Both the position numbers and the translations under genes were made by a program. The notes beneath the pieces are model-generated. The model was not told the origin of the DNA. It did no database searches and saw only the letters and a list, made by a program, of their open reading frames with translations. A stretch of DNA of 64,000 nucleotides from Bryobacterales bacterium (lineage in GTDB: Bacteria > Acidobacteriota > Terriglobia > Bryobacterales > Bryobacteraceae): positions 136,825 through 200,824 of the forward strand of contig CAVPSN010000017.1 in NCBI GenBank assembly GCA_963708385.1, in the 5' to 3' direction. How positions within the stretch are numbered: the stretch's first letter is position 1; each line of letters starts with the position of its first letter. This document shows, piece by piece, positions 1-11,225 of this stretch.

Positions 1-143
1 CGCTCGGTTACTGTCTTCTGACTCAGGCGCGACTGCGGGAAACTCACAATAGAGTGGGCGGCGAGACTGGCGGAGCGATGGGCGGCATACTGAAACTCGC
101 CGCTCATCGCTCGCGTCCGTTGGAGGACTATTCCGGAGGCACT

Positions 144-898
144 TCAGGAACCGGGCTTCTCGCGCTTCTCTGGCGCCACCTCGACGATGACTTCCGGAGC
201 CGGCTTCTGCTTCGTCTTTGCCTTGTCCGGAGCTACCTCGACGATCGGCTTTTCGCGAGGTTCGGGAGCAACCTCGGGTTTAGGCTTGCGTTCAGGCGCA
301 ACCTCTACGATTACTTCGGGGGCTACTTCGGGCCTAATCTCCGGCCGGATTTCGGTTTTGATCTCTGGACCGATTTCGGGTCTGATTTCGGGCCGGATCT
401 CGGGTTTCACTTCGGGCCGAATTTCAGGTTTGATCTCAGGCCGAATCTCGGGCTTGATCTCCGGCCGGATTTCGGGTTTGACTTCAGGTCGGATCTCAGG
501 CTTGATCTCAGGGCGGATTTCGGGTTTGATCTCGGGCCGAATCTCAGGCTTGATCTCAGGGCGAATCTCGGGCTTGATTTCAGGCCGAATCTCGGGCTTG
601 ATCTCAGGCCGGATCTCGGGCTTGATCTCAGGCCGGATCTCGGGCTTGATCTCAGGCCGGATCTCGGGCTTGATCTCAGGCCGGATCTCGGGCTTGATCT
701 CGGGCTGATCTCGGGCTTGATCTCCGGGCCGATCTCCGGCCGGATTTCAGAAGGTCCTCCGGGTTTGGTCTCCGGCGCAACTTCGACTACGACCTCCGAG
801 TACGGCGCATCGCGCTTGACCCTCTCAGGAGCAACCTCTGGCCGCACATTGGGAGGCAGTTTCGATTTCTTTTCCTGTGGCTTCTCGTCTTCTTTCAT
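144..898 (-). CDS. Pro/Glu-rich tetrapeptide tandem-repeat protein, about 252 aa. It is split into ORF pieces 407..898 and 144..410 by a 1-bp gap in the repeat near 705 (ggctgatc versus the consensus ggcttgatc). N-terminus MKEDEKPQEKK..., core of about 30 PEI(K/R) repeats, C-terminus rich in PEVAPEV/IVEVAP.
   Basis: The minus-strand frame of the 12/24-bp tandem repeat reads PEIRPEIK without stops from about 746 down to 144. The ATG at 896-898 has a GGAG 8 nt upstream. The plus-strand 283-aa GLISGRIS ORF is the antisense shadow. There is no signal peptide. Confidence 0.55.
290..745. repeat. Coding tandem repeat with a 12-bp basic period and a 24-bp higher-order unit (ggcttgatctca ggccggatctcg). 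Copies are near-perfect at 600-700 and degenerate toward 290.
   Basis: Direct reading of the sequence. Four or more identical 24-mers, flanked by diverged copies. Confidence 0.85.
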
Positions 899-924
899 GG
901 CTTAATCTCCAAGCTCAACTCGGT

Positions 925-3837
925 TCACGACGCGATTGAATATGGCCCATTCGCACGGGCCGCCAGGGGTTCCTTGAACATACCGAAATGGGAATGAAGC
1001 TCGAGCACCGCGGCAAGCGAATGCTGCACGAAATCGAGGCGCACTTCGCTTGCGGTCAGGCTGCGCCGCAGGCCGCCCAGCGCGTAACTGGGACTGGGCA
1101 GCATGGCTCCGTGTTCGGGGCGAATCACCAACTGCCGCAGGAAACGAAAGCCATTCTCGCAGGCGCCGATGCAGGTCCGATAACGCTCGTTATCGCCGAG
1201 GTCATGAGCGAGACGGGCGGCTGCCGCGAGACCCTCAACGTAGAGTGCCGTTGTATAACCGGGACCGTCGTGCTGGTGCCGATTGATGAAGCCACCAGTT
1301 CGCTCGAGTTGGACTTCGCGAATCCAATCCGCAATTTCAAAAACTAACTCGGCCCACTCGGGTTGACGGGTAACTTCCCACCACAATCGTCCCGCCTGCA
1401 TCAGCCAGGAGACTTGCCCGAAATTCCGCTTATAGCGATACCGGTGTCTGTAATAGAGGAAAGCTCGACGGATCTTGGTCTCATCGCACGCGGACAGACC
1501 CGCCAGTACTGATGCCGCCAGCGCGAGCATGGTCTGGCCCGGGAAGTAATCCTGATATTCGTCGGGACCCGCGTCCTCTTCCCGATGCGTCGCGATGCGG
1601 CCGTGCGGGCCAATGCGGGACCACAACATGGCGGCGATTCCGGCGGCGCGAGTGCGTCTCTCGTCATCGAGACTGAGTTCCGTCAGAGCCAGCAGGACGA
1701 AGGATAGCTCCGAAACGGAAGGCGCATTGCCCTCCTGCTCCATCCAAAGCCCCGCCGCTGTTTCGTGGATTTTTGCGAGCTGGGAATCGAGCATCGTATC
1801 CGCGCTTTCAAAGGCCTTGCGCTGCGACAGCGCGCGCGCCGCCCGCATCAAAACCCAGGCCAGGTGCGCGTCGCGCGGGGCACTGTTCCCGCGGTAGATC
1901 CAGTTCTGGAAGGGCTCATAACAAGAGTAAGTCGCGCCCTCCGGCAGGATATTACGAATCAGATATGGAACCTGCCAATCCACAAGTTGGCGTAATGCGT
2001 CTTCGAAGCGGTACTCGCCGTCCGGTTGCCGGAAGCCGTGCTCCAGTACCTCGACGCCATGCCAATCGGCCAGCCAAGTAGCGCAATCGTACCGGATCCA
2101 TCGATAGGGCGCGCGCGTAATGCCGGCTTTATCGACCACTTCGGCGACGAAGCCTGCGGAACTGAGGCTATTCCGAATGGCGACGAATGGCAGCAACATT
2201 CCCCGGCGCGAATTCTGCTCCACCTCGAGCGCTTGATTGCCGAGACGGAAGCGAGGCTCCACTTCCTCCGGCGACATCTCACCCAGCACGAGGCGATTGA
2301 ACAGGAGAGATACGGTGACGGCAATACGTTCCGGCCGATCCCGTTCCGAGGTGTCGTTTTGCTCGAAGCGTTGGTCGTTCAGCGCGGCCTCCACAAGCAA
2401 TCGAAGATCGCGTTCGGGATCCGCGACAGCGGAGCCGGCGCATCCGGATAACCGGCCGTCAAGATAAACCGTGACATAAAGCGAGTGGAGCGCGCCGGGC
2501 AATAGATCGCGTGGAAGGGGTGGCTCCGCTTCAGGTGGTCCCAATAATATGGCTTGCGCCATGTCGCGGGCGCGCTGCGCAACCGTGCCGCCGATAGCGC
2601 GGCGCGCGTGCCATTCATGCCGTTGCGGAACGGGAACACCTGAGGGCTGCCAATTAACGCCTGGCTCAACGGCCTTCTGCAGATCGTGGCGGTACAACAC
2701 GTACGGCTCGAAGCTGTAAAGACGCGCGTTTTTCTCGTGTGCGTGGCGAAACTGCTCCCACTCATTGCCGATGCCGGGCATGCGCGGAAGAGCCCCGCCC
2801 ATCTGTGACGGGCGCTCACGGCTGCAGACTACGATTCCGTAACGGTCATTATCGAGCTGGCCTGGGTGGCATTCTTCGAGCGGCCCGAAGAACGTAACTG
2901 CGATGTGACTGCGCTCGAGAACGCTGAGCGCTTTGTCGGCGGCGCCCAGGGATTTGGCGGTCTTCAGCGCCGCCGTCAGAATGCTTTCCGGAGTGGGCGG
3001 CGAGGGTTCGCCGGGGAAGATCCAGAAACCGTCGCGCGCGTGGCGCAGATAGATTTCGTCGCGGTCGCGCAGGCTTACCCACGCGCCGCCGCGCGAATCG
3101 TAATCGCCGTCAAGGTACTGGGGAGCGCGAGGCAATCTGCCGCAACGGAGATAGGCATCCATGCCGAGCCGCGCCAGTTGGGCGGGGTGAAGACCATCCG
3201 GCGCCTGTTGATCGTCCCAGGGAATCTCATCGATATACCGCGTCGGGTTCCGGTCCACTTTTGGCTCATCGTCCATGTTTTCCATCACGTCCTGAAAAAC
3301 ATCGAAGACGGCTTCCATGTGATAGCCTCGTTCGCGCATACGCGCGAAGCCCGCGTCCCAACCGAAACGTACCAGGACAAGGCCGCCTTCGACCCGCAGG
3401 CCCGCTTCCTCCAGATACACCGTGCCTTCGCGCATGGAAAGTCCCGAACTTACGGAATCGTCCAGAAGGATGGCGGGTTCATCCAAATCGATGCGGCCCT
3501 CGATGCGTTTGACCGAGCCGTGAGCTTTCTTCTCCTTGCGAACGATTAGTCCGTGATAGCGATTCCCCGATTGCAGAATCACCGACTGCATCAGCGGAAT
3601 GCCAGTGGTTCCGTAGGTTGCGATCTGGCGGCCGTCGAACTTTTCCAGGAGCGCGAGAAGACAACGTCCCGCCAGAAGCGCGCCGCGCGGATTCATACTC
3701 ACCGAAAGGGTGTCCAGCATCCAGCGCGCGGAGGAGCCATCGCGCGAAAGTATAGGCTGAGTGGGAGAGCGGTGCAGGATCCCGTCCCGCAGGATTAACT
3801 GCAGCAGTTCGTCGCGTTCTGAAACGGCGTAGTTCAT
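925..3837 (-). CDS. 970-aa multidomain fusion. The N-terminus is a type I phosphoribosyltransferase-like domain, the centre an AMMECR1-like domain, and the C-terminus an alpha/alpha-toroid-like domain of about 350 aa.
   Basis: PRPP-loop-like motif AILLDDSVSSGLS. AMMECR1-like motifs LYVTVYLDGRLSGCAGS (compare LRGCIG), NDQRF (compare DPRF) and RGMLLPFVAI. The start is 3 nt after the stop of the upstream radical SAM gene. The ORF is uninterrupted over 2.9 kb. Confidence 0.65.
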   Translation of the reverse strand: MNYAVSERDELLQLILRDGILHRSPTQPILSRDGSSARWMLDTLSVSMNPRGALLAGRCLLALLEKFDGRQIATYGTTGIPLMQSVILQSGNRYHGLIVRKEKKAHGSVKRIEGRIDLDEPAILLDDSVSSGLSMREGTVYLEEAGLRVEGGLVLVRFGWDAGFARMRERGYHMEAVFDVFQDVMENMDDEPKVDRNPTRYIDEIPWDDQQAPDGLHPAQLARLGMDAYLRCGRLPRAPQYLDGDYDSRGGAWVSLRDRDEIYLRHARDGFWIFPGEPSPPTPESILTAALKTAKSLGAADKALSVLERSHIAVTFFGPLEECHPGQLDNDRYGIVVCSRERPSQMGGALPRMPGIGNEWEQFRHAHEKNARLYSFEPYVLYRHDLQKAVEPGVNWQPSGVPVPQRHEWHARRAIGGTVAQRARDMAQAILLGPPEAEPPLPRDLLPGALHSLYVTVYLDGRLSGCAGSAVADPERDLRLLVEAALNDQRFEQNDTSERDRPERIAVTVSLLFNRLVLGEMSPEEVEPRFRLGNQALEVEQNSRRGMLLPFVAIRNSLSSAGFVAEVVDKAGITRAPYRWIRYDCATWLADWHGVEVLEHGFRQPDGEYRFEDALRQLVDWQVPYLIRNILPEGATYSCYEPFQNWIYRGNSAPRDAHLAWVLMRAARALSQRKAFESADTMLDSQLAKIHETAAGLWMEQEGNAPSVSELSFVLLALTELSLDDERRTRAAGIAAMLWSRIGPHGRIATHREEDAGPDEYQDYFPGQTMLALAASVLAGLSACDETKIRRAFLYYRHRYRYKRNFGQVSWLMQAGRLWWEVTRQPEWAELVFEIADWIREVQLERTGGFINRHQHDGPGYTTALYVEGLAAAARLAHDLGDNERYRTCIGACENGFRFLRQLVIRPEHGAMLPSPSYALGGLRRSLTASEVRLDFVQHSLAAVLELHSHFGMFKEPLAARANGPYSIAS

Positions 3838-3840
3838 CGG

Positions 3841-5772
3841 TTAGGCGATGCGGACCAGGCGATCGTCACGATCCGGGCTATCTGACGTTGTAACTTCTGA
3901 CGAAGGAGCGATGGCGTTCAGAGATAAATCGAAATCGGGGTTTTCCGGAAGCGCGAGGCTGAGATAACGGCCGTCGAGGAATAGCATCAGGTCGAGAGAG
4001 AGAAATTCCGCGAGGGCCGCTTCGATCCAGGGCTCGGGGCCGAACTGCCGGTGAAGCTGTTGCATAGTCCGAGCGTCGGCGCAGAATTCGTAGAGATCGG
4101 CATTTTCATCGCTAAAACGCCACTCGCGAACCTGACGCGAGCGACCATCCTCGATGACGATGCTGGACCATGCTTTTCGATAACGCAGGAAGGGGCGCTT
4201 CGCTCTCACCGCCCACCGGTCCTGCCAGACTCCGACGCGCGCGAATAGCTCGTCGTACTCCTGGTCTGGAACCGTGGCTGTCATTTCGTGATCGAAGTAA
4301 TAAGAGACGCGCGTGAGATCGAATTCGCCTTGCGGAAAGATGTAGTCATAGCAGCGCGAGGGTGTCATCTTCACGATGCTTTGGGATTTCGGGTCCGAAT
4401 ACATGGGCGAGCCACGGTCGGCGCGCGCTTTGACGATGGCGTAGGGCGGCTGGAAGTGATGCAGCTTCGCGACGACCTTGCTCTGCAACTGGTAATCGTC
4501 CGCCGTCTCCCCTGGAAACTGTACCAGTATGTTATAGAGGTTATTAATACCGTAGTAAGTACACCACTTGACTAACTCTACATTGCGCATTCCGGTGGAT
4601 AGCTTGCGCATGATTTTGAGAATGTGGGTGGAAAAACTCTCAACGCCTGGCTGAACGGAATAGAGGCCGCCGCGCCGCATTCGGCCCAACTGGGTGCGGG
4701 AAAAGTTGGGCCGAATCTCATAATGCAGTTGGAAATCGCTGTTCGCGGCGGATAGTCTGCCGAATAGCTGTTCCGCATATTCGGGCGCCATGATGTTATC
4801 GATAGCGTTGAACTGAAAGACGCCATATTGGCGCGACAACGTTTCGATCTGTTCGATAACGCGTTCGGGGCTTTTGGCGCGAAACTCCATGCCCGAGCGA
4901 TTGAGACCGCAGAAGGTGCAATGATTCTTTTCGCCCCACCAGCATCCACGGGCGGCTTCAATCGGCAGCAGAACGTCGCGTGATCCATCGTACTGCTCGT
5001 AGCCGCCTTCGCGGCGCGCGTAAAAGTACTCGGTGAAATCCGGCGTAGGGGTTTCATCCATGGCGCTGAAATTCGGAGCCCGTCCCGCGAACTGGATTTC
5101 ACCGTCCTCGCGAAACATCAGGCCGCGCAATCCTCTTAGGGATTGACCTGCGTAGAGGCGCCGGACCATCTCTGGAAAGGAGATTTCGCCGTCGCCGCAG
5201 TGCATGTAGTCGATTTGTGGGCAGCGGCGAATCACTTCGCCCGCGATGTCGTCCTCGAGGCTCGCGCCGCCCATGATGACAGGCAGGTCGGGATGCTTGC
5301 GTTTCAGGGCGCGAGCGAGGGCGAGACTGGAAAGCAATTGCTGGAATACTACGCTGAAGCCAACCAATCCAAAGCGGCTCCAATCGATGGCGTCGACGCA
5401 GAAATCGATGAACGCGGGCGCCGCATGGTCCCGGATGGCAATCAGATCTTCGCGCGAGCAGCCGGCAGTGCGACAGATAGCGTCGAAGCTGCGGCTGTAG
5501 AGCCTGAAATATTCGTCGTCCTGCTCTTTTGAGGCTATTTCGCCGAAGGCAGCTTTACTCCAGATCCATTCGCCGGCCATGCAGGGCCAGACGTCCGAGA
5601 GAGCCTCGCTGACTCGCCACCCCACGTGCGCGCCGAAGTACATGAACAGGGAGAAGGCCTGGGCGGGAATGCCGGCCTTTTCGAGCGTCGGCTTCAATAA
5701 GGCGAGTTGGAAGGAGGGATACCTGGCGGACAACGCCGGCATGCTGATCAGCGCGACTGGCTTCGGGTCCAT
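3841..5772 (-). CDS. Cobalamin-binding-domain radical SAM protein (class B-like), possibly of the RiPP-maturase type.
   Basis: N-terminal Rossmann/B12-like domain (KPVALISMP..., VIMGGASLEDD), then the radical SAM core ARGCWWGEKNHCTFCGLN with unusual CX7CX2C spacing. No C-terminal Cys-rich SPASM region. The ORF is intact. Confidence 0.7.
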   Translation of the reverse strand: MDPKPVALISMPALSARYPSFQLALLKPTLEKAGIPAQAFSLFMYFGAHVGWRVSEALSDVWPCMAGEWIWSKAAFGEIASKEQDDEYFRLYSRSFDAICRTAGCSREDLIAIRDHAAPAFIDFCVDAIDWSRFGLVGFSVVFQQLLSSLALARALKRKHPDLPVIMGGASLEDDIAGEVIRRCPQIDYMHCGDGEISFPEMVRRLYAGQSLRGLRGLMFREDGEIQFAGRAPNFSAMDETPTPDFTEYFYARREGGYEQYDGSRDVLLPIEAARGCWWGEKNHCTFCGLNRSGMEFRAKSPERVIEQIETLSRQYGVFQFNAIDNIMAPEYAEQLFGRLSAANSDFQLHYEIRPNFSRTQLGRMRRGGLYSVQPGVESFSTHILKIMRKLSTGMRNVELVKWCTYYGINNLYNILVQFPGETADDYQLQSKVVAKLHHFQPPYAIVKARADRGSPMYSDPKSQSIVKMTPSRCYDYIFPQGEFDLTRVSYYFDHEMTATVPDQEYDELFARVGVWQDRWAVRAKRPFLRYRKAWSSIVIEDGRSRQVREWRFSDENADLYEFCADARTMQQLHRQFGPEPWIEAALAEFLSLDLMLFLDGRYLSLALPENPDFDLSLNAIAPSSEVTTSDSPDRDDRLVRIA

Positions 5773-6242
5773 AACCGATCGACCGCACTGGGCGCCGCGC
5801 AATTCGATTGGGTCCCGGCGCAGCGTAAATTAGTATAGTTTCGGGCCGATGCGAATGCAATGATCTTTTGGACTGGGATGCCGAGGCGATTAGACCGGTC
5901 CCGGACGCGAGCCGCGGCCGGCGCCGTTTGATGGGGAGCGAGGCTCTGTGCACTTCACTTCATGACGGCGACTCGGCGCAGTTGTGAGATTGGAGCCCAT
6001 GCTCCTGCGCAGGGCCTTCGCGGGTGCTGAGAACGGAAAGGGGCAAGGTACGATTCCATACACGTGCCATCGAGCGGAGCATCATGGCATTGAATTGAGG
6101 GCGTTAGAAAACTTGCCTCCGCTCTGTTTGCGCATTGCTTCTTCCATCGGCTAAAGCTTTAAGGTGCTGCGCAGCACCCATCGGCTCTTCTTTTACGAGG
6201 ATCCCGTTTTGTGTTTTCGCGCGCTGTACATTCGTAACCGCA

Positions 6243-6291
6243 ACGTACTGCATATAGATAAAATTCTTGACGGGCCCCTATATATTGGGGC
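6243..6291 (+). promoter_or_regulatory. Putative nrdJ promoter/operator. TTGACG at 6267-6272 is followed by the 16-bp palindrome CCCCTATATATTGGGG (NrdR-box-like). A second imperfect ATATAG element lies about 29 bp upstream.
   Basis: AT-rich island in a GC-rich genome, directly upstream of the nrdJ RBS GAAGGAG. The palindrome resembles the NrdR box consensus, which is centred on TATATA. Confidence 0.35.
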
Positions 6292-6333
6292 AAGATTACG
6301 AAGTCGTCTCGTTTTGAGAGGAAGGAGCATTAC

Positions 6334-9178
6334 ATGGGACAACTGGCCGTCGGACTTGCGAAAATGGAAGTATTGGAACCGCAAACTACAACAAAAACAA
6401 AGGCCGGAATCGCGTTTCCGCGCTATTTTACCGCCCGCTTGGAAGCCGGCAAGACGCCCTACGACGAGGTGCAGTGGGAAACCCGCACCGCCTCGATCGG
6501 CAACGATAAAGGCTCGGTGATCTTCGAGCAGCGCGACATGGAGGCTCCCGCCGACTGGTCGCAGACCGCCACCAACATCGTCGCCAGCAAGTATTTCTAC
6601 GGCAAGCTCGGGTTCGCCCGAGCGCGAAACGAGCGTGGCGCAACTGGTGGAGCGCGTGGTGGACACCATCGCCGACTGGGGCAAGAAGGACGGCTATTTC
6701 AAGACCGACGCCGACGCCGAGAATTTCCGCTTCGAACTGGCGCACCTGATGCTCACGCAGAAGGCGTGCTTCAATTCGCCGGTATGGTTCAACGTGGGCG
6801 TGAAGGAGACGCGCGGCTACGGCTGGATCTACGACCAAGAAGCCGACGCGGTGAAGAAGCTGGAATCGGGCGAGCTGCGTCCGCAATGCTCGGCGTGCTT
6901 CATCGTTTCGGTGAAGGATTCGCTGGAATCGATTCTCGATCTGGCCAAGACCGAGGGCATGCTCTTCAAGTGGGGCTCGGGAACGGGCACGAACCTCTCG
7001 GCGCTGCGCGAGGAGGATGCGGTGCTTTCGGGCGGCGGGCGCGCCTCGGGACCGCTCTCGTTCATGAAGGGCTTCGATGCGTTCGCGGGCGTGATCAAAT
7101 CGGGCGGCAAGACGCGGCGCGCGGCCAAGATGGTGATCCTCAACGCGGACCATCCGGACATCGAGAAGTTCATCTGGTGCAAGGCGAAGGAAGAGAAGAA
7201 GGCCTACACGCTGGTGGAGGCGGGCTACGACTCTTCGCTCGATGGCGACGCCTACAGCTCGATCTTCTTCCAGAACGCCAACAATTCCGTGCGCGCCACC
7301 GACGAGTTCATGGAAGCGGTGGCGACGGACGGCGAGTGGTGGACCAAGGCCGTGGCCGGCGGCGAGCAAGCTGAAGCGCTATCAAGGCGCGCGACCTGAT
7401 GCGCCAGATCGCCGAAGCCACGCACCAGTGCGGCGACCCCGGCATGCAGTTCGATACCACGGTGAACCGCTGGCATCCGTGCAAGAACACGGCGCGGATC
7501 AACGCTTCGAACCCGTGCTCGGAGTACATGTTCCTGGACGATTCGGCGTGCAATCTGTCGTCGCTGAACCTGATGAAGTTCGTGGGGCCGGACGGCCAGT
7601 TCGACGTGGAGGCGTTCCGCCACGCGGTGGATACGATGATCATGGCGCAGGAGATCATCGTCGATAACGCCAGCTATCCGACGCAGAAGATCGGCGAGAA
7701 CTCGCACAACTTCCGGCCGCTGGGGCTGGGGTTCGCGAACCTGGGCGCGCTGCTGATGTCGATGGGCATTCCCTACGACAGCGACCAGGGCCGCGACATC
7801 GCGGGCGCCATTACGGCGGTGATGTGCGGCCAGGCGTATCTGACCAGCGCGCGCATTGCCGGAACCACCGGGCCGTTCCCCGGCTATGCGGAGAACGAGC
7901 AGCCGTTCCTCGAAGTGATCCGCATGCATCGCGATTCGGTGAGCCGCATCAACCGGCGCAACGTCCCGACGGCGCTTTATCAGAGGCGCGCAGCAGTGCT
8001 GGGACGACGCCTACGAATCGGGCCGGCGCAACGGCTATCGCAACGGCGCAGGTGACGGTGATCGCGCCGACCGGGACGATCGGCTTCATGATGGATTGCG
8101 ACACGACGGGCATCGAGCCCGATCTGGCGCTGATCAAGTACAAGAAGCTGGTGGGCGGCGGCGTGATCAAGATCGTGAACAACACGGTGCCGCAGGCGCT
8201 GATCAAGCTGGGCTACTCGCCGGAGCAGGTGGAGCAGATCGTCAGCCACATCGATTCGACGGGGACGATCGAGGGCGCGCCGCACTTGAAGACCGGAGCA
8301 TCTGGCGGTGTTCGATTGCAGCTTCCGGCCGCAGAACGGGACGCGGTCGATCCACTACATGGGCCACGTGCGCATGATGGCGGCGGTGCAGCCGTTCATT
8401 TCGGGCGCGATTTCGAAGACGATCAACATGCCCGAGGAGTGCACGGTGGAAGAGATCATGAGCGCCTACACCGAGAGCTGGAAGCTGGGGCTGAAGGCGG
8501 TGGCGATCTACCGCGACAACTCGAAGAAGGTGCAGCCGCTGAGTTCGGGCGCGGGCAAGGGCGAAAAGAAGGCCGCCACAGTGGCGGCGCCGACCGGGGC
8601 TACGGCGGACGAGGTCGTCGAGAAGGTGGTGTACCGGCCGGTGCGGCGCAAGCTGCCGGATGAGCGGCGGTCGATGACGCATAAGTTCTCGATCGGCGGC
8701 CACGAAGGCTACATCACGGTTGGCATGTACGACGACGGCGCGCCGGGCGAAATCTTCATCACGATGTCGAAGGAAGGCTCGACGATTTCGGGCCTGATGG
8801 ATGCGTTCGCGACGGCGGTCAGCTTCAACCTGCAGTACGGCGTGCCGCTGAAGTTCCTGGTGGACAAGTTCGCGCACGTGCGATTCGAGCCGAGCGGATG
8901 GACGGGCAATCCGCAGGTTCCGTACGCGAAGTCGATCATGGATTACATCTTCCGCTGGCTGGGCGCGAAGTTCCTGGGCGCGGAATACGCGGCTGACGGA
9001 AGCGGGCGAGACGCCGGCTGCTGCGGCCGACGGAGCCGGATCCGCAGCAGGCGCTGCCATTCGCACACCGGCGGCGGTGACGGATGCGCCGCTGTGCGCG
9101 GAGTGCGGGTCGATGATGACGCGCAACGGGAGTTGCTATAAGTGCGGGAACTGCGGCGGGACTAGCGGGTGTAGCTAG
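6334..9178 (+). pseudogene. nrdJ: Class II (adenosylcobalamin-dependent) ribonucleotide reductase NrdJ, readable only across six or more frameshifts (near 6620, 7375, 7990-8040, 8295 and 8995).
   Basis: Consecutive ORF pieces carry IVASKYFYGKLG, PQCSACFI, NPCSEY, APTGTIGFMMDCDTTGIEP, ISKTINMP and a C-terminal CxxC...CxxC zinc ribbon. Every frame switch falls within conserved sequence. Confidence 0.75.
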
Positions 9179-9298
9179 AGGCTAACTGACTCAATGCGGT
9201 GAGATCCCGACCTCGTCAGACAATGGGCGCGTTAATGTGGCCTCCTCATATCAAATGCTCCCAGTGGGGTATGTAGAATGGGAACACGAAGCTGAGGG

Positions 9299-9517
9299 AT
9301 GCGGATGCAGACGGATCTCGGGTTACAAAAAGAGTGGGAGGCTGAGTTCGAGGCGGCTGCCAAACGGCCTCTCCAACATCGCATGCGCTATGCATTCATC
9401 CACACGTATAAGCCTGTATTAGACGACGCCCGCTTCCGCGCTTTCGACACGATGGAGGAGTATCGCCAATGGTGTGACGCCAATCTGCCCGATTGGTTGG
9501 GTTATGGGCGCGTTTGA
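9299..9517 (+). CDS. Hypothetical small protein (72 aa). It could instead be joined to the open 90-aa extension upstream of the UxaA-family gene.
   Basis: ORF only; no motif recognised. Confidence 0.2.
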
Positions 9518-9743
9518 TTATCGCCAGGCTGAAGAGATTCGCGACTCATTCGCGCGCCACGCGGTCCGGTATTTATTCATAGGTAAATCCGGAGCCATTC
9601 TGTCAGGTTATCCCGACACCACTCAGGATGCGGACGGTACGTCGAGAAGGAAATCACGCCGATTCGCTCAATCGGCTTCGCTGCCTTCCACACAACCGGC
9701 TTCGCCATTGTCCAATGCGTACAAGGGCGTTAAAGTAGTCTCG

Positions 9744-11225
9744 ATGTTCATCCGCGTAAATTCCGGCGACAATGTCGGCATTATCGTAGACCCGGAGGGC
9801 TTCATCGCGCGCGAGCGCATTCCGCAAAGCCACAAAATGGCGTTGCGCGTGATTGAGGCCGGCGAGCCCGTGGTCCGCTATGGACATAACATCGGCCACG
9901 CCAACCGGCGCATCGAGGAAGGGGCGTGGGTACGCGAAGAACTGGTGGATCTGCCGGCTCCGCCCTCGCTCGACCATCTCCCCCTCGCAACAGATGTCCC
10001 AGCGCCGCTTCCGGCGCTGGATGGTTTCACCTTCGAAGGTTACCGGAACTCCGATGGCAGCGTAGGTACTCGCAACGTTCTCGGCATCGCGACCACCGTG
10101 CAGTGCGTCGCGCCGACGGTGGAGTACGCAGCGCGCCGCATCCGCGCCGAGTTGCTGCCGCGCTTTTCTAATGTCGACGACGTCGTAGCCATCACCCACT
10201 CTTACGGCTGCGGAGTAGCGATCGATGCGCCGGGCGCCGCGATCCCGATTCGAACGCTGAAGCATATTTCGCTGCACGCCAACATGGCCGTGCGACCACT
10301 GGTTGTCAGCCTGGGTTGCGAGAAATTGCAGCCAACGCGGTTGCTGGGTAGCGATCTGCCGATTCTCGGGGAAGGGAACGTGATCCGCTTGCAAGACGAG
10401 CGCGGCTTCAGCGAGAGCGTTGCGGCGATTCTTCGCGGCGCGGAAAAGCGCCTTGCGGAGCTCAACGAGCGCCGCCGGGTCCCGTGCGCCGCCGCCGATC
10501 TGGTGGTGGGGCTGCAATGCGGCGGCAGCGATGCGTTTTCCGGCGTGACGTGCAACCCAGCCGTCGGGTACGCGGCCGATTTGCTGGTCCGCGCGGGCGC
10601 CACTGTGATGTTCTCCGAAGTCACTGAAGTGCGCGACGCAGTGCACCTGCTGACGCCGCGCGCGGCCACTCCCGACATCGCCCGCGACCTTATCCGCGAG
10701 ATGCGCTGGTACGACGAATATCTGGCGCGCGGCTCGGCCGACCGCGCCGCCAACACGACTCCCGGCAACAAACGCGGTGGATTAGTCAATATCGTCGAGA
10801 AAGCGCTTGGCAGCGTCGCTAAAGCGGGCAGCACGGCTCTGTGCGCTGTCGCGGGCCACGGCGAGCGAGTCACGGCAAAAGGCCTGGTCTTCGCCGCTAC
10901 CCCGGCGAGCGATTTCATTTGCGGCACGCAGCAACTGGCGTCGATGAATCTGCACGTGTTCACCACCGGCGAAGGCAGTCCCTACGGACTTTCACTTGTT
11001 CCGGTGATCAAAATCTCTTCGCGAACAGCGCTTGCCGAAAAATGGAGCGACCTCATCGACATCGATGCCGGACGTATCGCCACCGGAGCGGCTACCATCG
11101 AAGAAATTGGATGGCAGATCTTTCGCTATCTTCTGGATGTGGCGAGCGGACGCAAACGGACGTGGGCGGAACACTGGGGATTGGGAAACGCGATGGCGCC
11201 GTTCAATCCCGGCCCTGTGACATAA
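9744..11225 (+). CDS. UxaA-family sugar-acid dehydratase (altronate/galactarate dehydratase-like).
   Basis: SAF-like N-terminus [14 protein letters not shown] plus a long UxaA-type C-terminal domain. The ORF is open from 9474, but that extension is not typical of the family. Confidence 0.75.

What the first reader, a model, noticed from the sequence alone, without database searches (positions are those of the whole stretch)
144..5802. Candidate undescribed modification system: non-canonical B12-type radical SAM + PRTase-AMMECR1-toroid fusion + PEI(K/R) repeat protein in one tight operon
Three same-strand genes are spaced 3 nt and 27 nt apart, which fits one transcript. Gene 1 is a cobalamin-binding-domain radical SAM enzyme whose cluster motif is C-X7-C-X2-C (GCWWGEKNHCTFCG) rather than CX3CX2C. 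Gene 2 is a 970-aa fusion I have not seen described. It has a type I PRTase-like domain, a linker containing a weak MEMO-like SHIAVTFFG stretch, a clear AMMECR1-like domain (LSGCAGS, NDQRF, LLPFVAI) and an alpha/alpha-toroid-like C-terminus. Gene 3 is a roughly 250-aa intrinsically disordered protein of about 30 PEI(K/R) tetrapeptide repeats between unique N- and C-terminal regions, with no signal peptide. AMMECR1 proteins are known partners of radical SAM enzymes in the AmmeMemoRadiSam system, but there the rSAM is a small PflA-like activase, not a B12-domain enzyme. B12-rSAM enzymes are known to install C-methyl and other marks on ribosomal peptides. A repetitive Pro-rich polypeptide encoded immediately downstream is an obvious candidate substrate for iterative modification of its repeats.
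Basis: partly seen in the sequence, partly recalled or inferred. Interest (0 to 1): 0.78.

Follow-up and report, generated by a model that had tools for sequence, protein, structure and literature searches.

The report
Conserved repeat-protein modification gene cassette
A three-gene cassette found in many soil bacteria pairs a protein made of Pro-Glu-Ile/Val-Lys/Arg repeats with a PoyC-type methylating radical SAM enzyme and a large uncharacterised four-domain enzyme, and it probably chemically modifies the repeat protein in a way not yet described.

Summary
The three minus-strand genes are real, with spacers of 3 and 26 nt. Three corrections apply.

1. Gene 1 is a full-length TIGR03975 "RiPP maturation radical SAM C-methyltransferase". 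Its CX7CX2C motif is the known PoyC hallmark and is kept in 75/75 cassette homologs.
3. Gene 3 is broken here by a 1-nt frameshift near 702-713. Two close relatives are in frame. Restoring one base gives 251 aa with 36 tetrads.

In 82 loci from at least four phyla, 67 carry a same-strand, flanking or intervening (P/T/V)-E-(I/V)-x repeat gene. The other 15 are cut at a contig end where it is expected. The genes occur in three orders.

Distant fusion homologs swap the rSAM for a Memo-TauD fusion or for lanthipeptide-type enzymes. They keep an acidic, Pro-rich repeat protein.

Best reading: a protein/RiPP-like modification system defined by the fusion enzyme, with the rSAM C-methylating Ile/Val (or Pro). 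No modification has been demonstrated, and I found no description in the searchable literature.

The parts
3841..5802 (-). Gene 1: B12-binding radical SAM enzyme of the PoyC type (TIGR03975). The ORF runs from TTG 5802; the probable start is ATG 5772 (643 aa).
   Evidence: TIGR03975 scores 525 bits (cut-off 282) over model positions 1-606/606. Pfam Radical_SAM is above its threshold; B12-binding is a sub-threshold hit at 27.1 bits against a cut-off of 32.1. Relatives are called at 642-643 aa.
4909..4944 (-). [4Fe-4S] cluster motif C-X7-C-X2-C (CWWGEKNHCTFC, residues 287-298)
   Evidence: Coordinates. The motif is kept in 75/75 cassette rSAM homologs. The same motif is reported for PoyC.
3241..3837 (-). 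Gene 2, residues 1-199: type I phosphoribosyltransferase (OPRT-like) domain. The PRPP loop ILLDDSVSSGLS lies at 3436-3471.
2608..3240 (-). Gene 2, residues 200-410: first, divergent AMMECR1-fold domain. It lacks the GC motif and keeps GGALPxxPG.
2023..2607 (-). Gene 2, residues 411-605: canonical AMMECR1 domain (LSGCAGS at 2431-2451, NDQRF, LLPFVAI)
   Evidence: PF01871 scores 49.9 bits (gathering threshold 25). 1zq7, 1vaj and 1wsc are hit by profile and by fold.
973..2022 (-). Gene 2, residues 606-955: (alpha/alpha)6 toroid. It is closest in fold to the AGE-superfamily sugar epimerases/isomerases and has no Pfam family.
144..898 (-). Gene 3: Pro/Glu/Ile-Val/Lys-Arg repeat protein (251 aa after correcting one base). 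It is interrupted in this window.
   Evidence: The intact ortholog in L001 is 246 aa. The 5' part is in frame in L090.
309..739 (-). Run of 36 tetrapeptide units (15 PEIR, 14 PEIK, 2 PEIG, 2 PEVK and others), encoded by 12/24-nt DNA repeats
   Evidence: TRF finds periods of 12 and 24.
702..713 (-). Defective 11-nt repeat unit that causes the frameshift in gene 3
   Evidence: Alignments to L001 (gaps of 3, 23 and 12 nt) and to L090 (an 11-nt insertion in the window).

Best explanation
The locus is one copy of a widespread, uncharacterised three-gene cassette that post-translationally modifies a ribosomally made, leaderless, intrinsically disordered repeat protein.

Shown:
- The three genes are adjacent on one strand, and the set is conserved across phyla despite gene-order shuffling.
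- The repeat proteins share a period-4 unit (P/T/V)-E-(I/V)-x. This appears as PEI(K/R), as PEV(V/I)TE(V/I)AP, or as both.

Inferred from family membership: the PoyC-type cobalamin/radical SAM enzyme iteratively C-methylates an unactivated carbon in each unit. The most likely site is C-beta of the conserved Ile/Val. Pro is an alternative.

Inferred from comparative genomics: the PRTase-AMMECR1-AMMECR1-toroid protein is the class-defining partner of the repeat protein. It is the constant element when the tailoring enzyme changes (B12-rSAM, Memo-TauD, kinase/HopA1/LanC, an added 2OG oxygenase, or none).

Speculative: the fusion binds the repeats and uses PRPP, or a related phosphoribosyl ligand, to modify or activate the conserved acidic residue. 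Its sugar-epimerase-like toroid might then process the sugar. Removing the Glu charge and methylating Ile/Val/Pro would turn a neutral polyampholyte into a cationic amphiphile.

The copy in this window carries a 1-nt frameshift in the substrate gene. This is either an assembly error or a recent inactivation.
For: Gene 1:
- Full-length TIGR03975 match.
- CX7CX2C kept in 75/75 homologs.
- PoyC has this motif and beta-methylates Ile/Val.
- B12-rSAMs beta-methylate Pro/Val/Ile in the cationic clavusporin peptide.

Co-occurrence:
- Of 82 loci, 73 have the rSAM next to the fusion.
- 67 have a same-strand, flanking or intervening repeat ORF.
- All 15 loci without one are truncated on the side where it is expected.
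- Gene orders are PRF 40, PFR 12, RFP 4 plus the window, and RFPR with a second rSAM.
- No other gene is shared by more than 25 loci.

Repeat motif:
- 76% of all Glu residues are followed by I/V.
- A spacing of 4 residues dominates.
- Variation among units is synonymous.

Partner and motif co-vary:
- E-(I/V) repeats go with the rSAM.
- (V/I)x(A/Q)DGxP repeats go with Memo-TauD (L085, L089).
- CP-rich/PETG/(EG)n repeats go with APH-kinase plus HopA1-LanC (L086/87).
- 25 loci add a P4H-like 2OG oxygenase directly upstream of the repeat gene.

Fusion protein:
- The four-domain architecture is kept down to 26-30% identity, in 209 clusters at E<1e-30.
- The PRPP loop and the GGALPxxPG motif are kept in all subfamilies examined.
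- There is no signal peptide or TM segment in the repeat protein, which fits modification by a cytoplasmic rSAM.
Against: - No modification has been observed. The substrate relationship rests on gene neighbourhood and on analogy.
- The cassette has no leader peptide, RRE domain, protease or exporter, unlike most RiPP clusters.
- The Thiothrix locus L070 has the repeat gene and the fusion but no rSAM within 8 kb, so the rSAM is not obligatory.
- No precedent was found for a PRTase acting on a peptide. The PRTase domain could be regulatory.
- PE/PK-rich low-complexity linkers are common in unrelated proteins.
- Gene 3 is frameshifted in this window.
Confidence: 0.6

Rival explanations
1. Multi-copy precursor of a small product. 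Each tetrad, or each E-(I/V) pair, is modified and then excised by unlinked peptidases. This would yield dozens of copies of a small modified peptide, amino-acid derivative or cofactor-like molecule, rather than a modified full-length protein.
For: Up to about 40 near-identical units per protein. There is precedent for repeat-motif precursors thought to give several identical products (TigB/TvgA). The nucleotide/sugar-type domains in the fusion would suit small-molecule building.
Against: No protease or exporter is conserved in the cassette. The units are heterogeneous within one protein (PEIK/PEIR/EVAP mixes). The flanking non-repeat parts also carry the E(V/I)AP motif.
Confidence: 0.15
2. 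The repeat protein is not the substrate. The rSAM and the fusion act on a small molecule or nucleotide-sugar, and the disordered acidic/basic protein is a scaffold, regulator, chaperone or structural partner that is merely co-expressed.
For: PRTase and AGE-like toroid folds normally act on small molecules. AMMECR1 has no known substrate: literature searches returned no biochemical study. The repeat protein lacks a leader.
Against: Characterised TIGR03975 members act on ribosomal peptides. The partner enzymes in the other subfamilies are peptide-tailoring types such as LanC/HopA1/kinase and P4H-like 2OG oxygenase. The repeat motif changes together with the partner enzyme, as expected for a substrate.
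Confidence: 0.12
3. In this particular genome the cassette is decaying. The frameshift in gene 3 is real, so no PEI(K/R) protein is made, or only a 163-aa product with an out-of-frame SPRS/GLRS tail.
For: The frameshift is in the sequence as given. The base is lost from an AA dinucleotide (AAG to AG), not from a long homopolymer run.
Against: Genes 1 and 2 are intact and 99.3% identical to L090 with no indels. Both close relatives are in frame at the site. Tandem 12-nt repeats are error-prone in assembly, and many related contigs break exactly there. The window has another locally error-ridden stretch, the RNR gene.
Confidence: 0.2
4. The repeat ORF is a non-coding tandem DNA repeat that happens to be open, and the trio is a coincidence.
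For: 12/24-nt tandem repeats. Several overlapping ORFs are open on both strands.
Against: The same amino-acid motif recurs with different codons and unit lengths across phyla. It is always on the enzymes' strand and next to them. Variation is at third codon positions. A GGAGA sequence lies 9 nt upstream of the ATG.
Confidence: 0.02

Closest known systems
PoyC/PoyB-type B12-dependent radical SAM C-methyltransferases of proteusin RiPPs (NCBIfam TIGR03975)
   Same: Gene 1 is a full-length, above-threshold family member. It has the same CX7CX2C cluster motif. PoyC beta-methylates Ile and Val, the residues conserved in every repeat here.
   Different: There is no NHLP/Nif11 leader precursor and no epimerase or other proteusin enzymes. 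The substrate candidate is a 150-430-aa repeat protein, and the obligatory partner is the PRTase-AMMECR1-toroid fusion.
Clavusporin (Mpc) system: cobalamin rSAMs that hypermethylate a Pro/Val/Ile-rich cationic peptide surfactant
   Same: B12-rSAM C-methylation at unactivated carbons of Pro, Val and Ile in a peptide that also carries Lys/Arg. The composition resembles the P-E-I/V-K/R units.
   Different: The Mpc precursor has a leader, a 13-residue core, a follower and a dedicated protease. It has no repeats, no Glu in every unit and no AMMECR1/PRTase enzyme. I did not test the sequence relationship between MpcB/C and gene 1.
TvgA/TvgB and TigB/TigE poly-cyclopropylglycine RiPPs
   Same: The precursor is built from a short repeated motif with a conserved Val/Ile, which a radical SAM enzyme modifies in every repeat.
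   Different: Those enzymes are rSAM-SPASM cyclopropyl synthases, not B12 methylases. Their precursors are about 60 aa with about 5 repeats, and no fusion-type partner is present.
AmmeMemoRadiSam system (TIGR04335/04336/04337)
   Same: An AMMECR1-domain protein is genomically coupled to a radical SAM enzyme. In distant branches of the fusion family the partner is a Memo domain protein fused to TauD.
   Different: The TIGR04335 score is below its cut-off (50.7 against 99). The rSAM is a 640-aa B12 class B enzyme, not the small activase-like one. There is no Memo gene in this cassette. The AMMECR1 domain is duplicated and fused to PRTase and toroid domains.
Orotate phosphoribosyltransferase (type I PRTase)
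   Different: TIGR00336 scores 50.6 bits against a cut-off of 106.8, so this is not an OPRT ortholog. It is the N-terminal domain of a 970-aa protein in a peptide-linked operon, and its acceptor is unknown.
AGE-superfamily (alpha/alpha)6 sugar epimerases/isomerases (cellobiose 2-epimerase, YihS, mannose isomerase)
   Different: Identity is only 10-15%, with no sequence-profile or Pfam match. I could not check the catalytic residues.

Membership tests
TIGR03975 RiPP maturation radical SAM C-methyltransferase (PoyC type) | Full-length HMM match above the curated cut-off | tested here: met
   525.4 bits against a cut-off of 281.85, covering model positions 1-606/606.
TIGR03975 RiPP maturation radical SAM C-methyltransferase (PoyC type) | CX7CX2C [4Fe-4S] motif plus an N-terminal cobalamin-binding domain | tested here: met
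   CWWGEKNHCTFC at residues 287-298, kept in 75/75 homologs. Pfam B12-binding scores 27.1 bits, which is sub-threshold, but the region is covered by the full-length TIGR match.
TIGR03975 RiPP maturation radical SAM C-methyltransferase (PoyC type) | C-methylation of a ribosomal peptide | not testable with these tools
   This needs co-expression and mass spectrometry.
Proteusin RiPP cluster | Precursor with an NHLP or Nif11-type leader | tested here: not met
   No NCBIfam or Pfam hit for gene 3 in either frame. The N-termini of 67 repeat proteins are short, hydrophilic and not conserved.
RiPP (general) | A ribosomal precursor gene adjacent to its modifying enzymes | tested here: met
   67 of 82 loci meet this; the remainder are contig-truncated.
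RiPP (general) | Leader/core organisation with proteolytic release and export | tested here: not met
   No conserved protease or transporter in the cassette and no leader.
AmmeMemoRadiSam system | AMMECR1 protein matching TIGR04335 above its cut-off | tested here: not met
   50.7 bits against a cut-off of 99.
AmmeMemoRadiSam system | A Memo-family protein and a small activase-like rSAM in the same system | tested here: not met
   There is no Memo gene in this cassette, and the region proposed as MEMO-like is an AMMECR1 fold. The rSAM is a B12 class B enzyme. Memo-TauD partners occur only in distant branches.
AMMECR1 domain (PF01871) | Pfam match above the gathering score, and the AMMECR1 fold | tested here: met
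Type I phosphoribosyltransferase | PRTase fold with an acidic PRPP-binding loop | tested here: met
Type I phosphoribosyltransferase | PRPP-dependent phosphoribosyl transfer | not testable with these tools
   This needs a PRPP-consumption or PPi-release assay.
Orotate phosphoribosyltransferase (pyrE) | Equivalog HMM above its cut-off | tested here: not met
   TIGR00336 scores 50.6 bits against 106.8.
LanC-like cyclase toroid | Closest fold or sequence match to LanC | tested here: not met

The most novel reading that the evidence does not exclude
The PRTase-AMMECR1-AMMECR1-toroid enzyme catalyses a new kind of ribosomal protein modification: a PRPP-dependent (phospho)ribosyl-type modification or activation of the conserved Glu/Asp in each repeat. 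Variable tailoring enzymes (B12-rSAM, Memo-TauD, Lan-type, P4H-like) then decorate the product. This would give AMMECR1 (and by extension Memo-AMMECR1-rSAM systems) their first biochemical role as peptide/protein-modifying machinery.
Probability: 0.2. Interest if true: 0.9.

Novelty: new variant of a known kind. Interest (0 to 1): 0.75.

Why it matters
From my own knowledge, AMMECR1 is conserved from archaea to humans and lies in the AMME deletion region. The papers my searches returned were almost entirely clinical, genetic or gene-expression studies, and none was a biochemical study of its function.

This cassette gives AMMECR1 domains a concrete candidate substrate, a simple repeat protein, within a compact set of three genes. 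The family is large: 209 clusters at E<1e-30. The cassette also occurs in two cultured genomes, Blastococcus deserti CGMCC 1.15935 (L066) and Mycobacterium sp. OAS707 (L069), so the question can be tested directly.

It would also extend PoyC-type C-methylation from leader-guided toxins to leaderless, protein-sized repeat substrates. It introduces a PRTase and a sugar-epimerase-like toroid into peptide modification. It may also point to an abundant modified polyampholyte or amphiphile made by soil Acidobacteriota.

Tried and rejected
- Sequence-level test for an internal AMMECR1 duplication (hhalign, residues 200-410 against 411-605) found only a 16-residue match at probability 0.8%. The duplication was shown only by fold.
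- A database search with the intact repeat protein returned only compositional matches to PE/PK-rich linkers in SpoIIIAH, SLH, ATP synthase b and similar proteins. It could not size the family.
- PADLOC gave no defence-system match for the enzymes.
- Rfam gave nothing in 1-10000, so there is no cobalamin riboswitch.
- The promoter and terminator scans were at chance level and say nothing about the transcript.
- Literature searches for AMMECR1+rSAM+RiPP, for the repeat motifs, for PRTase+RiPP and for AMMECR1+BGC found nothing relevant.
- The Burroughs 2019 paper on Memo-AMMECR1 systems is not held.
- I first read the RNR frameshifts as showing a generally error-prone assembly. I withdrew this because the indels and the 8% divergence are confined to the RNR gene, while its flanks are 99.3-100% identical to L090.
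- A LanC-like identity for the toroid was rejected.
- A MEMO identity for the middle region was rejected.
Full report
**Observation**

The minus strand of window 144-5802 carries three consecutive ORFs:
- 5802..3841, 653 aa from a TTG. ATG 5772 gives 643 aa, the length called in close relatives.
- 3837..925, 970 aa.
- A repeat gene starting at ATG 898.

The spacers are 3 nt (TAA-ccg-ATG) and 26 nt.

Gene 3 is not intact here. The ATG-initiated ORF leaves the PEI(K/R) frame at a defective 11-nt repeat unit (AAG to AG) near 702-713. It then ends at 407 in an SPRS/GLRS frame. The PEI(K/R) frame is open from about 707 to the stop at 144.

Restoring one base gives a 251-aa protein with these properties:
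- 36 consecutive tetrads: 15 PEIR, 14 PEIK, and a few PEIG, PEVK, TEIR, PEVA and PEVI.
- Seven E(V/I)AP motifs in the flanking parts.
- No hydrophobic run of four or more residues.
- P:E:(I+V):(K+R) = 55:55:55:55.

Among the 36 DNA units, the Pro, Glu and Ile codons vary almost only at the third position. This is the signature of selection on the protein.

**Is the frameshift real?**

Two close relatives are in frame at the site.
- L001 is 90% identical over the cassette and encodes an intact 246-aa ortholog.
- L090 is a syntenic JGI contig, 99.3% identical in genes 1 and 2 with no indels. It reads PEIGPEIKPEIKPEIKPEIKPEIR straight through, and the window has 11 extra bases there.

I cannot tell an assembly error from a recent mutation. 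Tandem 12-nt repeats are hard to assemble, and many related contigs end exactly in this gene.

**Gene 1**

- It matches NCBIfam TIGR03975, "RiPP maturation radical SAM C-methyltransferase", end to end at 525 bits against a cut-off of 282.
- Pfam Radical_SAM is above its threshold. B12-binding is a sub-threshold hit at 27.1 bits against a cut-off of 32.1.
PoyC is the polytheonamide enzyme that beta-methylates Ile and Val (PMC11285071).
- The motif is present in all 75 cassette homologs that cover the site.
- Public annotation already calls these proteins RiPP maturation C-methyltransferases.

Gene 1 on its own is therefore a new member of a known family.

**Gene 2**

An AlphaFold2 model built on 39 homologs is confident (pLDDT 85, pTM 0.80). 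The protein has four domains.

| Residues | Domain | Main evidence |
|---|---|---|
| 411-605 | Canonical AMMECR1 | PF01871 at 49.9 bits |

- PRTase domain: it is not an OPRT ortholog, since TIGR00336 is below its cut-off.
Sequence-profile comparison of the two AMMECR1 halves does not detect the duplication. In homolog P0291, Pfam AMMECR1 matches both regions (two stretches), and the best-scoring stretch is the equivalent of this first domain.
- Toroid: the best matches are cellobiose 2-epimerase, mannose isomerase and sulfoquinovose isomerase. GH76/GH88 hydrolases and terpene cyclases follow. LanC is not among the top 60.

The fusion family is large.
- More than 836 hits in the 90% clusters.
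- 2133 representatives at E<1e-3 and 209 at E<1e-30.
- The full roughly 950-aa architecture is retained down to 26-30% identity.

I analysed 82 non-redundant loci. Most are Acidobacteriota (Blastocatellia/Pyrinomonadaceae, Terriglobia, Thermoanaerobaculia). Others are Actinomycetota, including two cultured genomes, Blastococcus deserti CGMCC 1.15935 and Mycobacterium sp. OAS707. Myxococcota, Thiothrix and an Omnitrophota MAG are also represented.

- 73 loci have a gene 1 homolog directly beside the fusion.
- 67 have a same-strand, flanking or intervening ORF rich in PE(I/V) or E(I/V)AP motifs.
- All 15 loci without such an ORF are cut by a contig end within 0-300 nt of where the gene is expected.
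- Gene order varies:
  - Repeat-rSAM-fusion: 40 loci.
  - Repeat-fusion-rSAM: 12 loci, mostly Actinomycetota and Myxococcota.
  - rSAM-fusion-repeat: 4 loci plus this window.
  - rSAM-fusion-repeat-rSAM2: Candidatus Angelobacter and Terriglobia loci. The second rSAM is a 33%-identical paralog and the repeat is RPIVEVVAEI.
- No other gene is shared by more than 25 loci, so the conserved unit is these three genes.

Conservation of the set through order shuffling and across phyla is strong evidence of a functional link.

**The repeat proteins**

Across 67 proteins the common element is a period-4 unit (P/T/V)-E-(I/V)-x.
- 76% of all Glu residues are followed by Ile or Val.
- A spacing of four residues accounts for 941 of the E(I/V)-to-E(I/V) distances.

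It appears as PEI(K/R), as PEV(V/I)TE(V/I)AP, or as a mixture. The window protein has both.

N-termini are short, hydrophilic and unconserved, and there is no NHLP/Nif11 leader. This is unlike classical RiPP precursors. It is more like the repeat-motif precursors TvgA and TigB, whose conserved Val/Ile is modified in each repeat by a radical SAM enzyme (PMC10878394).

**Variation in partner enzymes**

| Loci | Repeat protein | Partner enzymes |
|---|---|---|
| 25 Pyrinomonadaceae-type loci | E-(I/V) type | 2OG-Fe(II) oxygenase (PF13640) directly upstream of the repeat gene, in addition to the rSAM |
| Thiothrix L070 | PE(I/V)K type | None; no rSAM within 8 kb |
| L085, L089 (about 30% identity) | (V/I)(M/I)(Q/A)DG(E/A/P)P motifs | Memo-TauD fusion protein |
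| L086/L087 | Cys-Pro-rich, then PETGPETGPETG, then (EG)n | APH-type kinase domain fused to the enzyme; HopA1-LanC-like protein downstream |

The fusion and an acidic, Pro-rich repeat protein are therefore the constant pair. The tailoring enzyme changes together with the repeat sequence. This is what one expects if the repeat protein is the substrate and the fusion is the class-defining enzyme.

Across all these subfamilies several motifs are kept. These are the PRPP loop DDS(I/V)(S/G)(S/T)G, the VR..(R/K)K..G loop, and the GGxWVSxR and GGALPxxPG motifs of the first AMMECR1 domain. This argues that the PRTase domain binds a real ligand.

**Mechanism, with levels of support**

- Shown: the gene arrangement, the domain identities, co-conservation, motif conservation, and the absence of a leader, exporter or protease.
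- Inferred from family membership: the rSAM uses SAM, a [4Fe-4S] cluster and methylcobalamin to C-methylate an unactivated carbon in each unit. The conserved Ile/Val C-beta is the most likely site, by analogy with PoyC. Pro is possible, by analogy with clavusporin biosynthesis, where B12-rSAMs beta-methylate Pro, Val and Ile of a cationic peptide (PMC10849626).
- Speculative: the fusion recognises the repeats and uses PRPP to modify or activate the conserved Glu/Asp. The epimerase-like toroid may act on the sugar. I put this at about 0.2. I found no precedent for a PRTase in peptide modification.

**Rivals**

- A multi-copy precursor of a small product (0.15).
- The repeat protein as a non-substrate partner of small-molecule enzymes (0.12).
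- A genuinely inactivated copy in this genome (0.2; this is independent of the system's nature).
- A non-coding repeat (0.02).

**Comparison with known systems and novelty**

- Gene 1 is a member of the PoyC family.
- The cassette is not a proteusin cluster, because there is no NHLP/Nif11 leader.
- It is not an AmmeMemoRadiSam system: TIGR04335 is below its cut-off, the rSAM is of a different class, and there is no Memo gene.
- The toroid is not LanC-like.
- NCBIfam release 20 has no model for the fusion or for the repeat protein.
- Full-text searches found no description of the cassette.

I file it as a new variant of a known kind: radical-SAM-linked ribosomal peptide/protein modification, with an unprecedented partner enzyme and substrate type.

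**Verdict**

- Interest 0.75.
- Confidence in the best explanation 0.6.
- The most novel reading not excluded is PRPP-dependent modification of Glu/Asp by an AMMECR1-containing enzyme. Probability about 0.2, interest 0.9 if true.

Noticed in passing
window 6334-9180 (+): The class II (B12-dependent) ribonucleotide reductase gene changes reading frame at least five times. Against the syntenic contig L090, where the gene is an intact 945 aa, this stretch is only 91.7% identical with 13 gap columns. Most of these are 1-nt insertions outside homopolymers. The flanks are 99.3-100% identical. This is either a local assembly problem or a pseudogene.
   Followed up: partly
window 73-5875 vs L001 5953-11751; window 101-432: The cassette is 90% identical to L001, but the sequence on both sides is unrelated. 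The 3' third of gene 3 is 100% identical to L001 while the rest is about 90%. This suggests that the cassette has been transferred or has recombined between genomes.
   Followed up: partly
L008 4434-5075 and 24 other loci: A P4H-like 2OG-Fe(II) oxygenase (PF13640) sits directly upstream of the repeat gene on the same strand. Identity among the copies is 44-89%. The window has no such gene.
   Followed up: partly
L085 7621-9183; L089 3205-4740: Distant fusion homologs (about 30% identity) are followed by a Memo-TauD fusion protein instead of an rSAM. Their companion proteins carry (V/I)x(A/Q)DGxP repeats. This links AMMECR1 to Memo outside the classical AmmeMemoRadiSam trio.
   Followed up: partly
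L086 1348-7803 (and L087): A 1370-aa version of the fusion carries a C-terminal APH-type kinase domain and is followed by a HopA1-LanC-like protein. The upstream 199-aa protein is Cys-Pro-rich with PETG x3 and a long (EG)n run.
   Followed up: partly
L053 5250-6704, L008 1639-3183 and 13 other loci: A TIGR03913 'GDL motif peptide-associated radical SAM/SPASM maturase' (650 bits against a cut-off of 592) lies within a few kb of the cassette. Its position and strand vary. It is probably a separate neighbouring peptide-modification system.
   Followed up: no
L070 6993-14081 (Thiothrix): The repeat protein here has a long Ser/Gln/Asn-rich N-terminal part with an LNILQQLLASL helix, similar to the N-terminus of the L085 companion protein. 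There is no rSAM nearby, and an AcrB-type transporter follows the fusion gene.
   Followed up: no
window 54-905 (+) and 187-708 (+): Long antisense ORFs across the repeat region (LDLRPD and GRISGLIS repeats) are mechanical consequences of the 12-nt repeat. They are not evidence of genes.
   Followed up: no
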